Shown piece by piece: positions 20,601 through 23,600 of a stretch of 64,000 nucleotides of DNA. Source of the DNA: Escherichia coli (GTDB lineage: Bacteria > Pseudomonadota > Gammaproteobacteria > Enterobacterales > Enterobacteriaceae); assembly GCF_044647545.1 (NCBI RefSeq), contig NZ_CP172818.1; one strand, 5' to 3'. A program made the position numbers. Numbering within the stretch: position 1 is the first letter of the stretch; every line of letters begins with the position of its first letter.

Positions 20601-23600
20601 TCGCTGAAGGTTGCCGGGAACAGGTTGGCATCGCCCATAAAGCTCGCCATAAAGCGGGAGGCGGGCTGGCGGTAAAGATCCTGCGGTGAGCCGATCTGCA
20701 TGATGTGTCCCTTGTTCATCACCAGCACAGTATCAGAAACCGCAAAGGCTTCGCTCTGATCGTGGGTGACGTACAGCGAGGTGATATCAAACTGCTTTTG
20801 CAACTCGCGGATCTTGTCGCGCATGCTGCGACGCAGGTTGGCGTCGAGGTTACTCAACGGCTCATCAAACAGCAGCACTTTCGGCTTGAGGATCAGCGCG
20901 CGGGCCAGCGCCACGCGCTGCTGCTGCCCGCCGGAGATCTGATCGACAAAGCGGTCTTCGAATCCTTCCAGATCCACCATCGCCAACGCCTCTTTGACGC
21001 GGGCTTTCAGCTCTGCGCGCGGTACGCCGAGCATTTTCAGGCCATAACCGACATTCTCTCCCAGCGACATATGCGGGAACAGGGCATAGGACTGAAACAC
21101 CATACAGATATCGCGCTGCTGAATAGAGCGATGGGTGACGTCTTCGCCATCAATGAAAATTTGCCCTTCGCTCGGTTTTTCCAGCCCGGCAACCAGGCGC
21201 AAAATAGTGGTTTTGCCGCAGCCGGACGGGCCGAGCAGCGTCACCATTTGCCCCTGCGGGATGGTGAGGTTGATATTGTCGATTACCGTATTACTGCCAA
21301 ATCGTTTAGTGACGTTGCGCAGTTCAACGAAATTTTTCTGAGTCATAGTGCGCTCCATTACGCCTGGTTTTTGGCTTTTGAACGGGAGGTACGTGATTCA
21401 CCGATCAGCCAGTCAAAGATGAAAATAATCGCCAGCATCACCACGATCAGAATGGAACCGTAGGCAATCGCTACACCGTATTCGCCATCTTCCACGCGGT
21501 TGAGGATGTAAGCCGTCGCTACGCGGGTATCCGGCGTGACGAGGAACACAATGGCGCTGACGGTGGTAATGGCGCGCACAAAGCTGTAAATCAGCGCCGA
21601 GAGGATCGCCGGGCGCAGCAGCGGCAGCAGGATGTGCGTAATGGTACGCAGGGAACCGGCGCGCAGGCTGAGTGAGGCTTCATCGAGCGATTTATCGATT
21701 TGGTCCGGTAATGAATCCAACTTACTGATAGTGTTTTATGTTCAGATAATGCCCGATGACTTTGTCATGCAGCTCCACCGATTTTGAGAACGACAGTGAC
21801 TTCCGTCCCGGCCTTGCCAGATGCTGCCTCAGATTATGCCGCTCAATTCGCTGCGTATATCGCTTGCTGATAACGTGCAGCTTTTCCTTCAGGCGGGATT
21901 CATAAAGCGGCCATCCGTCCGTCATCAATACCACCACGTCAAAGGCCGATAGCAGGCTCAGAAGACGCTCCAGCGTGAACATTGTGCGTTCACCGAAAAC
22001 GTGCGCCACGACAGTCCTGCGTACCCTGTCATACGCGTAAAACAGCCAGCGCTGGCGTGATTTAGCCCCGACGTAGCTCCACTGTTCGTCCATTTCCGCG
22101 CAGACGATGACGTCCCTGCCCGGCTGTATGCGCGAGGTTACCGACTGCGGCCTGAGTTTTTTAAATGGCGGAAAATCGTGTTGAGGCCAACGCCCATAAA
22201 GCGGGCGGTTGCCCGGCATCCGACGCCATTCATGGCCATATCAATGATTTTCTGGTGTGTACCGGGTTGAGAGGCGGTGTAAGTGAACTGTAGCTGCCAT
22301 GTTTTACGGCAGTGAGAGCAGAGATAGCGCTGATGTCCGGCAGTACTTTTACCGTTACGCACAACGCCGTCAGTAGCGGAACAGGAGGGACAGCTGATGG
22401 AAATGGAAGCCACCGGAGCACCTCAAAAGCACCGTCATCCACTAAATCAGTAAGTTGGAAGCATCACCGAGAACACAAATGGGCTAATTCGGCAGTACTT
22501 TCCTAAAAAGACATGTCTTGCCCAATATACTCAACATGAACTAGATCTGGTTGCTGCTCAGCTAAACAACAGACCGAGAAAGACACTGAAGTTCAAAACA
22601 CCGAAAGAGATAATTGAAAGGGGTGTTGCATTGACAGATTGAATCTACAGCAGCTTTTTTTAATATGTCCCGTTCGTCGGTAACCCGTTTCAGCTCTTTC
22701 TGGAGACGGCGGATCTCGGCCTGAGCATCTGACTGTTCTTTATTAGTGGAAGAATCCGGACCGTACTTCTTTATCCAGGCATAAAGGCTGTGGGTGGTGA
22801 TATCGAGACGTGTTGCAACGCTGGCAACAGAATAACCGAGATCAACAACCTGTTTGACTGCTTCAGTTTTAAACTCTTCGGGATAACGCTTACCGCTCAT
22901 GGGCACCTCTCTTTAAGCCATTTTAAATGACTCGGAGGTGTCTGTTAAACCCGTGGCGATTCAAAATTGCGATATATACATACCCATGACTGCCCAGCGT
23001 ATCGGCTTCACCAGTCAGCCCGTTACGGTACAGTGTGACACAGTGCGCGTACCTGGGATTCAGCTCACAGGAGAGCAGCATCAGCTCCAGATGTGCGACA
23101 AAATGCGGGAAGGCTTCATCCAGTTGTAGAGTCTGCACCTCACTGAATGAGCCGGTGAATCCAGCCCGGTCAGCCAGAAAATGCAGACGATGACCTTCCT
23201 GCACCAGTCGTGCTCCGAAACACGGTGTGATATCTCGTTTAAGCCCCCAAGTTTGAGTAGAGTCTTTATTCATAATTTTATTCCTGTTAAAGAAGACCAT
23301 GTTCGGCGAATGAGAATATTTGCCTGCCGCCGACAATCAGGTGGTCGGGGACATGGTGAACACTTTTTAACATCCTTTACCCATGGTGATCGACTTTTTC
23401 TTCAGGTCGATCACCCCCACTTTCGTGCTGTACCACCACACCTCGTAGCTGCCGTCTTCCTGCATCTCCTTCAGCCCGACCCGTTCTCCCCTGAACGCCT
23501 TGCCTGCGCTCAGACTTACCCCTTTCACGCTCAGCTTTCCGCTGATATCCACTTTCCTGACCATCACCCCTTCATCGTATTCCGGGGGCGTTGTGTTGCC

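What the first reader, a model, noticed from the sequence alone, without database searches (positions are those of the whole stretch)
22630..22670. Second IS30/IS3-family junction, companion to the hot-spot at 13085
This is the second of the two junctions described in the IS30 finding: the IS30 terminal repeat ends at 22649 and the IS3-family orfA fragment (minus strand) begins at 22650. The IS30 here carries only its last 181 bp because IS1 copy A replaced the rest.
Basis: seen in the sequence. Interest (0 to 1): 0.3.

Follow-up and report, generated by a model that had tools for sequence, protein, structure and literature searches.

The report
IS30 stub beside broken IS3-family element
This is a scar where the mobile element IS30 jumped into its favourite landing site inside another mobile element and was later cut down to 181 bp by an IS1-linked rearrangement; the scar is already annotated in E. 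coli K-12.

Summary
IS1 ends at 22468. Positions 22469-22649 are the last 181 bp of IS30 (180/181 identical to the full copy at 13085-14305, with its 26-bp right inverted repeat, IRR, intact). From 22650 the minus strand carries the first 83 codons of an IS3-family orfA. Across 10300-45379 the window is base-identical to E. coli K-12 (CP4-6 prophage) except in its two IS1 copies. The pieces are K-12's truncated 'IS30B', 'insX' (ISEhe3-like) and IS1B, mapped by Olasz et al. 2022.

Both IS30 copies sit at the same codons of two different IS3-family elements. The site is 5 nt after the A6G/A7 -1 frameshift heptamer, just before the stimulatory hairpin, and the two copies have opposite orientation relative to orfA, so they are independent hits.

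The hot spot is general:
- 115 of 148 IS30 ends in metagenome contigs lie at this one site (conservative automatic count).
- About 29 of 46 ends in species-representative genomes do (hand count; the automatic classifier gives 24 of 45).
- They occur in both orientations, often with a 2-bp duplication.

IS1 has no 9-bp duplication, so the truncation came from an IS1-linked deletion or recombination.

Verdict: a real, ordinary, already-known scar. The wider homing rule is the only notable lead.

The parts
21358..21706 (-). afuB' (ferric ABC transporter permease), 5'-truncated pseudogene that abuts IS1
   Evidence: K-12 annotation transferred from L001. The flank ATTTGGTCC is not repeated on the other side of IS1.
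21707..22468 (-). IS1 copy A (762 bp, a rare IS1 variant). It has no 9-bp target duplication. It forms the left breakpoint of the IS30 remnant.
   Evidence: It differs at 61 positions from K-12 IS1B at the same site. It is 99.3-99.5% identical to IS1 copies in only five E. coli records.
22469..22649 (+). IS30 remnant (K-12 'IS30B'): IS30 nt 1041-1221, i.e. the last 57 codons of the transposase plus the right end
   Evidence: 180/181 identical to 14125-14305. Annotated in K-12 as 'IS30 family transposase, missing N-terminus'. PMC9333248 Fig. 3.
22624..22649 (+). Intact 26-bp right inverted repeat (IRR) of IS30
   Evidence: Identical to 14280-14305. In K-12 this IRR was still used as a target by IS30cat (strain i231, PMC9333248).
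22650..22663 (-). Retained 5' half of the IS30 hot spot: TTAAAAAAAGCTGC. It holds the A7 -1 frameshift heptamer (22655-22661) plus the 5-nt spacer that ends at the IS30 joint.
   Evidence: The heptamer and spacer rule comes from PMC4066793.
22650..22963 (-). Left 314 bp of an ISEhe3-like IS3-family element (K-12 'insX'): terminal repeat, promoter-like site and orfA codons 1-83, cut after ...ILKKA
   Evidence: Pfam HTH_Tnp_1 at E=3.9e-19. Aligned to intact relatives L003 and L002. The ISEhe3 assignment is in PMC3032704 Table 3.
22923..23273 (-). yagB (antitoxin-family gene). Its last 41 nt lie inside the terminal repeat of the ISEhe3-like element.
   Evidence: K-12 annotation combined with the IS end at 22963.
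13085..14305 (+). Full IS30 (K-12 IS30A) inside IS911, with a 2-bp duplication AC (13083-13084 and 14306-14307). This is the companion junction and the direct-repeat partner of the remnant (8344 bp apart).
12750..13084 (+). IS911 5' part (insN): orfA up to ...ENEILKKA, ending in TTAAAAAAGGCTAC at the IS30 left end
   Evidence: HTH_Tnp_1, E=2.6e-14.
14306..14733 (+). IS911 3' fragment (insO pseudogene) starting ACCGCGCTCTTGATG, the other half of the hot spot

Best explanation
The junction is a two-step transposition scar.

**Step 1 (shown in relatives, inferred for this copy).** IS30 inserted into an ISEhe3-like IS3-family element lying next to yagB. The insertion point is IS30's natural hot spot: the -1 frameshift window of IS3-family orfA/orfB (A6G or A7 heptamer, 5-nt spacer, base of the stimulatory hairpin). 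IS30 cuts at spacer nt 4-5 and duplicates those 2 bp. The window is held constant at the DNA level across the IS3 family by recoding constraints. Its two halves both show A at -11 and -10, GC at -5 and -4, and RY at -2 and -1, which fits IS30's preference for a long imperfect palindrome. The insertion separates the slippery heptamer from its hairpin and orfA from orfB. It therefore abolishes the OrfAB transposase and leaves a truncated OrfA.

**Step 2 (breakpoints shown, mechanism inferred).** An IS1 copy ended up at IS30 nt 1040/1041 with no target duplication. This points to an IS1-mediated adjacent deletion or recombination between two IS1 copies. That event removed IS30 nt 1-1040, the 3' half of the ISEhe3-like element and part of afuB.

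**What remains.** The stub cannot transpose, but it is not inert. Its IRR is still a substrate or target for IS30 transposase. It is also a 181-bp direct repeat of IS30A 8.3 kb upstream, which can mediate deletion of the interval between them.
For: **Coordinates and identity:**

**Intact relative.** L003 (E. coli AP025205.2) has a full IS30 in a complete ISEhe3-like element, at the same position and in the same orientation. It carries a 2-bp duplication GC: sense ATATTAAAAAAAGCC[GC]GGCGTACTTCGC, encoding ILKKAAAYFAK. In the reconstructed element an 11-bp hairpin (-16 kcal/mol) starts right after the 5-nt spacer. This matches the IS3-family rule that the hairpin starts 4-10 nt after the motif with a G-C pair, and the finding that 72% of heptamers are A6G or A7 (PMC4066793).

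**Same site in other elements:** IS911 (window 13085, duplication AC) and IS600 (L004).

**Generality.**
- In one genome per species, 29 of 46 informative IS30 ends abut this site by hand classification. The stricter automatic classifier gives 24 of 45. The host elements are at least 8 different IS3-family members, from Enterobacterales to Marinomonas, Shewanella, Woeseia and Saccharospirillum.
- In metagenome contigs, 115 of 148 ends do. IRL and IRR are about equally frequent at each half.
- 13 complete metagenome copies have a 5' half, a 3' half and an equal 2-bp duplication.
- The flanking ORFs checked all match HTH_Tnp_1.

**IS1.** There is no 9-bp duplication in any pairing of the two IS1 copies' flanks. 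The 3' half of ISEhe3 is absent from the window.

**Residual activity.** PMC9333248 reports IS30cat inserting next to the IRR of truncated IS30B. One C600 assembly has perR-insN-IS30-insX-yagB, i.e. loss of the 8.3-kb interval.
Against: - At this locus only one flank of the IS30 survives, so the 2-bp duplication cannot be shown for this copy.
- The flank is GCTGC here but GCCGC in the intact relatives.
- Hybrid joints exist. L002 has an IS911 3' half, IS30 and an ISEhe3 5' half with unequal flanks. Some metagenome copies have two 5' or two 3' halves. An IS30/IS3 junction can therefore also arise secondarily by recombination between IS30 copies.
- I could not read the published 24-bp IS30 consensus (Olasz 1998 is not held). 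The palindrome argument rests on my own half-site tallies. The lambda LHS hot spot matches them only in its A/T-rich arms.
- No genome in the E. coli set preserves an IS1-in-intact-IS30 intermediate at nt 1040/1041, so the IS1 step is inferred from breakpoints alone.
- The metagenome sample is dominated by gut E. coli and is not phylogenetically independent.
Confidence: 0.85

Rival explanations
1. The junction was not made by a primary insertion here. It arose secondarily, either by homologous recombination between two IS30 copies sitting in different IS3-family elements or by IS30 IR-targeted transposition. That placed an IS30 right end next to an already broken ISEhe3 orfA.
For: - Hybrids of this kind exist. 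L002 has an IS911 3' half, IS30 and an ISEhe3 5' half with non-matching flanks.
- Metagenome IS30 copies flanked by two 5' halves or two 3' halves, or with unequal 2-bp flanks, are also seen.
- IR-targeting at this very IRR has been shown experimentally (PMC9333248).
Against: - Even then, the IS30|ISEhe3 joint itself must originally have come from an insertion at the hot spot.
- Intact ISEhe3::IS30 with a proper GC duplication, the same position and the same orientation is widespread (L003, L006).
- The insX part is 98-99% identical to those copies.
Confidence: 0.1
2. The two IS30/IS3-family junctions in the window are two pieces of a single IS30 insertion that was later duplicated or split by rearrangement.
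For: Both IS30 sequences are in direct orientation and 99.4% identical over 181 bp.
Against: - IS30A is complete and is flanked by both halves of IS911 with a perfect AC duplication.
- The element at 22650 is a different IS3-family member. Its orfA DNA is strongly diverged from IS911 except for about 17 nt at the joint.
- IS30 has the opposite orientation relative to orfA in the two cases.
Confidence: 0.02
3. The concentration of IS30 copies in IS3-family elements reflects survivorship, not target choice: insertions in dispensable ISs are neutral and persist, while others are purged.
For: Insertions into other mobile elements are expected to be neutral. About a quarter to a third of the ends lie elsewhere.
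Against: - Survivorship would spread insertions over the whole ~1.25-kb IS3-family element. Instead, 115 metagenome ends sit at one dinucleotide, and I recognised only five at other positions inside IS3-family elements.
- They occur in both orientations and in many different family members.
- IS30 is experimentally known to have hot-spot specificity (PMC9333248 introduction).
Confidence: 0.08
4. The adjacency is chance or an assembly artefact.
For: None beyond the repeat-rich context.
Against: - The motif occurs only twice in 64 kb, both times at IS30 ends, with 0 expected.
- The identical junction is present in 672 complete E. coli genomes.
- K-12 genomes carry the same structure, identical outside IS1.
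Confidence: 0.01

Closest known systems
E. coli K-12 CP4-6 region: truncated IS30B / insX (ISEhe3-like) / IS1B / afuB'
   Same: - Same order, breakpoints and sequence. Window 10300-34400 is identical to MG1655 outside the IS1 copies except for one SNP at 21704, and 34401-45379 is identical too.
- Annotated as pseudogenes in RefSeq.
- Mapped in PMC9333248 Fig. 3.
   Different: - The two IS1 copies differ from K-12's by 8% and 4%.
- The window diverges from K-12 by about 1.5-5% beyond 45380, so the source is a related strain, not K-12 itself.
- Olasz et al. give 184 bp for the remnant; I measure 181 bp.
IS30 hot-spot (HS) targeting, e.g. lambda LHS and the genomic-site consensus oligo (Olasz et al. 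1998, cited in PMC9333248)
   Same: - Repeated insertion at exactly the same position.
- 2-bp duplication.
- Both orientations.
- A nearly palindromic target with A/T-rich arms.
   Different: - Here the target is a functional recoding signal of another IS family, and it is by far the commonest natural site.
- I could not check the published consensus base by base.
IS30A in IS911A (window 13085) and IS30D in IS911B of K-12 KpLE2
   Same: Same codon position in the orfA frameshift window. PMC5379014 states that the KpLE2 IS911 is interrupted by IS30.
   Different: Those copies are full length with both flanks. This one is a 181-bp stub in a different IS3-family member and in the opposite orientation.
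ISs that home to repeated, dispensable sequences (e.g. REP-targeting IS621 / ISPpu9-type elements)
   Same: Works like them in outcome: a multi-copy, harmless landing pad (PMC1525189 and PMC12288879 abstracts).
   Different: - Different transposase families and chemistry. Those named are IS110-family; IS30 is a DDE copy-out-paste-in element.
- The target here is another IS's frameshift signal, not a REP.

Membership tests
IS30 (IS30 family) element | 26-bp terminal inverted repeat ending ...GATTGAATCTACA | tested here: met
   22624-22649 is identical to the IRR of the full copy at 14280-14305.
IS30 (IS30 family) element | Single ~383-aa DDE transposase ORF | tested here: not met
   Only the last 57 codons remain (IS30 nt 1041-1221). 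It is a remnant, not an element.
IS30 (IS30 family) element | 2-bp target duplication | not testable with these tools
   The left flank of this copy is lost. The feature is met in the intact relative L003 (GC) and in IS30A (AC).
IS3 family (ISEhe3-like) element | Terminal repeat starting TG... and an OrfA with an HTH_Tnp_1 domain and leucine zipper | tested here: met
   The end is TGAATCGCCACGG at 22963. PF01527 scores E=3.9e-19, 69 bits against a cut-off of 24.1.
IS3 family (ISEhe3-like) element | A AAA AAA/G slippery heptamer at the orfA/orfB overlap | tested here: met
   A7 lies at 22655-22661 on the minus strand. In the intact relative the -1 frame continues into OrfB. The motif rule is from PMC4066793.
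IS3 family (ISEhe3-like) element | orfB encoding the DDE catalytic domain, and a right terminal repeat | tested here: not met
   Two probes of 36 and 41 nt taken from the relative's 3' half (one inside orfB, one at the orfA 3' end / hairpin region next to the hot spot) find nothing in the window with up to 3 mismatches. It is a fragment only.
IS1 | ~768 bp with GGTAATGA.../...GCATCACC ends and insA/insB' | tested here: met
   21707-22468, 762 bp, about 92% identical to K-12 IS1B.
IS1 | 9-bp target duplication of a simple insertion | tested here: not met
   ATTTGGTCC versus GAGAACACA. There is also no match with the flanks of the second IS1. The copy is rearranged.
IS30 natural hot-spot target class | Same exact position hit repeatedly, in both orientations | tested here: met
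   115 of 148 metagenome ends, and 29 of 46 genome ends by hand count (24 of 45 by the automatic classifier), lie at this site. IRL and IRR counts are roughly balanced at each half.
IS30 natural hot-spot target class | Match to the published 24-bp palindromic consensus | tested here: inconclusive
   The two halves share A-11, A-10, G-5, C-4, R-2 and Y-1. The published matrix was not available, and the lambda LHS agrees only in its A/T arms.

The most novel reading that the evidence does not exclude
IS30-type elements (those sharing these inverted repeats) home systematically on the -1 frameshift window of IS3-family elements across Gammaproteobacteria, so most natural copies are nested in IS3-family members. 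The recoding signal (A6G/A7, 5-nt spacer, hairpin base) would serve as a conserved, mobile, multi-copy, harmless landing pad. Each hit would knock out the competitor's OrfAB transposase while leaving a truncated OrfA regulator. The resulting IS30 copies would then recombine to shuffle the IS3 halves and the DNA between them. I found no statement of this rule in the searchable literature, but the key 1998 target-specificity paper could not be read and may already note it.
Probability: 0.35. Interest if true: 0.55.

Novelty: already known. Interest (0 to 1): 0.3.

Why it matters
**For this window:** little. It explains three adjacent pseudogenes (afuB', the IS30 stub and insX). It also flags a 181-bp direct repeat with IS30A and a still-usable IS30 end, both of which make the 8.3-kb interval (ykfC, IS5, mmuPM, afuC) unstable.

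**More generally:** the companion junctions point to a simple rule that is useful for annotation. An IS30 end is most often found 5 nt downstream of the A6G/A7 heptamer of an IS3-family orfA. If this rule has not been described, it is a clean example of one IS family using another family's recoding signal as its landing pad.

Tried and rejected
- **IS1 as a simple insertion or composite transposon.** I looked for a 9-bp IS1 duplication in all pairings of the two IS1 copies' flanks and found none. A simple insertion and an IS1-composite insertion are therefore rejected.
- **An ancestral intermediate.** I searched for IS1 inside an otherwise intact IS30 at nt 1040/1041 in 5426 E. coli genomes. 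None was found, only IS1 near IS30 at other offsets.
- **An ancestral full IS30 next to insX-yagB.** Only one record has this, a C600 assembly, and it is a derived 8.3-kb deletion rather than an ancestor.
- **The missing ISEhe3 3' half.** Two probes (one in orfB, one at the orfA 3' end next to the hot spot) found nothing in the window.
- **The published IS30 consensus.** PMC179709 is not held, and a 'GOHS' search gave 0 papers. Five further literature searches found no description of an IS3-frameshift-window hot spot.
- **The lambda LHS site.** Comparison showed only weak agreement.
- **Promoter/terminator scan of 22400-23000.** Nothing above chance.
- **K-12 as the source.** I first assumed the window was K-12 itself. 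This is rejected because of the divergent IS1 copies and the roughly 1.5-5% divergence beyond 45380.
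Full report
**1. The observation**

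Reading the window directly:
- IS1 ends ...GTAAGTTGGAAGCATCACC at 22468.
- Positions 22469-22649 are the last 181 bp of IS30, ending in the 26-bp right inverted repeat (IRR) TGTTGCATTGACAGATTGAATCTACA.
- From 22650 the minus strand reads ...GACATATTAAAAAAAGCTGC|.

The repeat finder and BLAST align 22469-22649 with 14125-14305 of the complete 1221-bp IS30 at 13085-14305. The match is 180/181, with one T/C difference at 22474. The breakpoint is therefore IS30 nt 1040/1041.

The minus-strand ORF starts at ATG 22900 and encodes MSGKRYPEEF...RVTDERDILKKA. It matches Pfam HTH_Tnp_1 (PF01527), the IS3-family OrfA domain, at E=3.9e-19. Alignment with intact relatives puts the element's terminal repeat end at 22963.

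The motif TTAAAAAARGCYRC occurs only twice in 64 kb. Each copy abuts an IS30 end, and none is expected by chance.

**2. Where this is**

- Window 10300-34400 is identical to E. coli K-12 MG1655 (CP4-6 prophage, perR to yagJ), except inside the two IS1 copies and for one SNP at 21704.
- Window 34401-45379 is also identical to K-12.
- Beyond 45380 the window is about 1.5-5% diverged and lacks a K-12 IS3.

The source is therefore a strain that shares this prophage region with K-12, not K-12 itself.

RefSeq annotates the pieces as follows:
- afuB' (permease, missing N-terminus);
- IS1B;
- 'IS30 family transposase, missing N-terminus';
- 'transposase, missing C-terminus' (insX);
- yagB.

The E. coli W genome paper assigns insX to ISEhe3 (PMC3032704). 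Olasz et al. 2022 (PMC9333248, Fig. [quoted passage not shown] They also isolated a strain (i231) in which IS30cat inserted next to its IRR. The feature is therefore already known. I measure 181 bp, not 184.

**3. The two junctions are independent hits on one site**

At 13085, IS30A sits in IS911 orfA with a 2-bp duplication...ATATTAAAAAAGGCT[AC]|IS30|[AC]CGCGCTCTTGATG. At 22650, on the orfA sense strand, the joint is ...ATATTAAAAAAAGCTGC|IRR.

The two orfA sequences are strongly diverged in DNA, apart from about 17 nt at the joint. IS30 also has opposite orientation relative to orfA in the two cases. These are two events at homologous codons, (E/D)ILKKA, of two different IS3-family elements.

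Other records support this:
- **L003 (AP025205.2):** a full IS30 in a complete ISEhe3-like element, at the same position and orientation, with duplication GC.
- **L004:** IS30 at the same codons of IS600.
- **PMC5379014:** notes that K-12's other IS911 (KpLE2) is also interrupted by IS30.

**4. What the site is**

The A6G (IS911) or A7 (ISEhe3-like) run is the -1 programmed frameshift heptamer of the IS3 family.

I reconstructed the intact ISEhe3-like element from L003. It gives orfA ...ILKKAAAYFAKLSD*, a -1 frame that runs on into OrfB, and an 11-bp hairpin (-16 kcal/mol) that begins right after a 5-nt spacer. IS30 duplicates spacer nt 4-5.

This fits two published findings (PMC4066793):
- 72% of IS1/IS3-family heptamers are A_AAA_AAG or A_AAA_AAA.
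- The stimulatory hairpin starts 4-10 nt after the motif with a G-C pair.

Insertion therefore separates the heptamer from its stimulator and orfA from orfB. That removes the OrfAB transposase and leaves a truncated OrfA. The effect on expression is inferred, not tested.

**5. How general the hot spot is**

I scanned with a pattern that matches both IS30 ends.

*One genome per species* (41 loci):
- By hand, 29 of 46 informative ends abut either the 5' half (...T[TC]AAAAAAGGCTAC| and variants) or the 3' half (reverse complement ...CATCAAGAGCGCGGT| or ...GCGAAGTACGCCGC| and variants). The stricter automatic classifier gives 24 of 45.
- At least 8 different IS3-family members are involved, from Enterobacter, Yersinia and Erwinia to Marinomonas, Shewanella, Woeseia and Saccharospirillum.
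- The three non-enteric flank ORFs I checked are HTH_Tnp_1 proteins.

- A conservative automatic classifier puts 115 of 148 ends at the site. IRL and IRR counts are balanced: 32/35 at 5' halves and 20/28 at 3' halves.
- 13 complete copies have 5' half + 3' half + an equal 2-bp duplication.
- I recognised only five ends at other positions inside IS3-family elements. This argues for target choice rather than mere survival of harmless insertions.

Both halves share A at -11 and -10, GC at -5 and -4, and RY at -2 and -1. That gives an imperfect palindrome around the duplicated dinucleotide, in line with the 'nearly palindromic' hot spots described for IS30 (PMC9333248).

Two limits apply. I could not read the 1998 consensus. 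The lambda LHS site agrees only in its A/T-rich arms.

In E. coli, 672 of 5426 complete genomes carry this very IS30-IRR|ISEhe3-orfA joint. About 310 carry the K-12 form with IS1.

**6. The IS1 side**

- IS1 copy A (21707-22468) has flanks ATTTGGTCC (afuB') and GAGAACACA (IS30 nt 1041-1049).
- The second IS1 (33172-33939) has flanks CTGTTACCG and GAATTTTCA.
- No pairing gives a 9-bp duplication.

IS1 is therefore not a simple insertion and the pair is not a simple composite. The most economical reading is an IS1-mediated adjacent deletion or IS1 x IS1 recombination. That event removed IS30 nt 1-1040, the 3' half of ISEhe3 (absent from the window), part of afuB and whatever lay between. No complete E. 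coli genome keeps an intermediate, so this step is inferred from breakpoints only.

**7. What the remnant still does**

The stub has no transposase, but two properties remain:
- **A usable end.** Its IRR is intact and was used as a target in K-12 (PMC9333248).
- **A direct repeat.** It repeats IS30A over 181 bp, 8344 bp away. One C600 assembly (L005) shows perR-insN-IS30-insX-yagB, i.e. loss of that interval. That IS30 carries the stub's allele at the single distinguishing SNP and differs from IS30A elsewhere, so I cannot say whether the loss was homologous or transposase-driven.

Hybrid or 'wrong-half' flanks show that IS30 copies nested in IS3-family elements recombine with each other (L002; several metagenome copies).

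**8. Verdict**

The finding is real, correctly located and correctly interpreted. It is an ordinary, already annotated and published IS scar.

The only lead of wider interest is the rule behind the two companion junctions: in nature, IS30-type elements are found mostly in the frameshift window of IS3-family elements. I found no explicit statement of this in the searchable literature. I therefore rate the finding low and the wider reading as moderately interesting but uncertain in novelty.

Noticed in passing
window 21707-22468 and 33172-33939 (plus SNP at 21704): The two IS1 copies sit at exactly the K-12 positions but differ from K-12 IS1B/IS1C at 61 and 30 positions. Copy A is a rare 762-bp variant with a 6-bp deletion, 99.3-99.5% identical to IS1 copies in only five E. 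coli records, four of them ~6.85-kb records. All surrounding DNA is 100% K-12 except one SNP 3 bp outside IS1. This suggests IS1 gene conversion by the strain's own IS1 population, or mis-assembly of repeats.
   Followed up: partly
window 45380-64000: Identity to K-12 drops from 100% to about 95-98.5% at 45380, and the K-12 IS3 insertion near 57.8-60.2 kb is absent. This is a recombination boundary between a K-12-identical CP4-6 block and a different backbone.
   Followed up: partly
L005 (E. coli C600, NZ_CM132660.1) 3138-5245: This lab-strain assembly has perR-insN-IS30(full)-insX-yagB, so the 8.3-kb interval between IS30A and the IS30B stub is deleted. Its IS30 carries the stub's C allele at the only distinguishing SNP, so the exchange point or mechanism is unclear.
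   Followed up: partly
L002 (NZ_CP178690.1) 2052-4432; metagenome loci: Some IS30 copies are flanked by halves of different IS3-family elements (IS911 3' half + ISEhe3 5' half), by two 5' halves, or by two 3' halves, with unequal 2-bp flanks. These are footprints of recombination or inversion between IS30 copies nested in different IS3-family elements.
   Followed up: partly
window 22923-23273 (yagB) and 22923-22963: The last 41 nt of the yagB antitoxin-family ORF lie inside the terminal repeat of the ISEhe3-like element, and no cognate toxin gene follows it. The IS insertion or deletion appears to have left an orphan, C-terminally altered antitoxin gene. A 76%-identical paralogous stretch lies at 6427-6535.
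   Followed up: no
L026, L162 (GGTAAAACCCCTGCGGG|IS30); L097, L140 (GCGATAACCATAGACGCATCCCGA(T)|IS30); L099: A few IS30 ends lie at other recurrent positions inside IS3-family elements: an IS911-like orfA ...RQGKTPA site, an ISEhe3 orfB site, and one 9 nt upstream of the IS600 hot spot. These may be secondary hot spots.
   Followed up: no
window 5415-5490 and 39741-39810: tRNA-Thr(CGT) (thrW) lies at 5415-5490. A 70-nt stretch at 5439-5508, covering its 3' part and downstream bases, is repeated 94%-identically 34.3 kb downstream. These mark the CP4-6 prophage attachment sites that bracket the whole IS-rich region.
   Followed up: partly
H162/H163 (NZ_CP080133.1, NZ_CP080121.1): Two chicken E. 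coli genomes have IS1 inserted in IS30 about 17 nt from the breakpoint seen here. This is a separate IS1-into-IS30 event in the same short region.
   Followed up: no
L039 (Marinomonas sp. MED121) 2556-4423: An element with IS30-type inverted repeats but about 1.87 kb long (versus 1.22 kb) is inserted at the ...ERDILKEA|AMFFATES... frameshift window of a marine IS3-family element. The targeting rule therefore extends to longer IS30 relatives outside the enterics.
   Followed up: no
window 22562-22906 minus strand: The truncated orfA reading frame runs on for 29 codons into the antisense strand of the IS30 remnant, giving a 114-aa chimeric ORF. A promoter-like site (TTAACA-17-TAAAAT) lies in the IS left end at 22948-22920, but this is not above chance.
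   Followed up: partly
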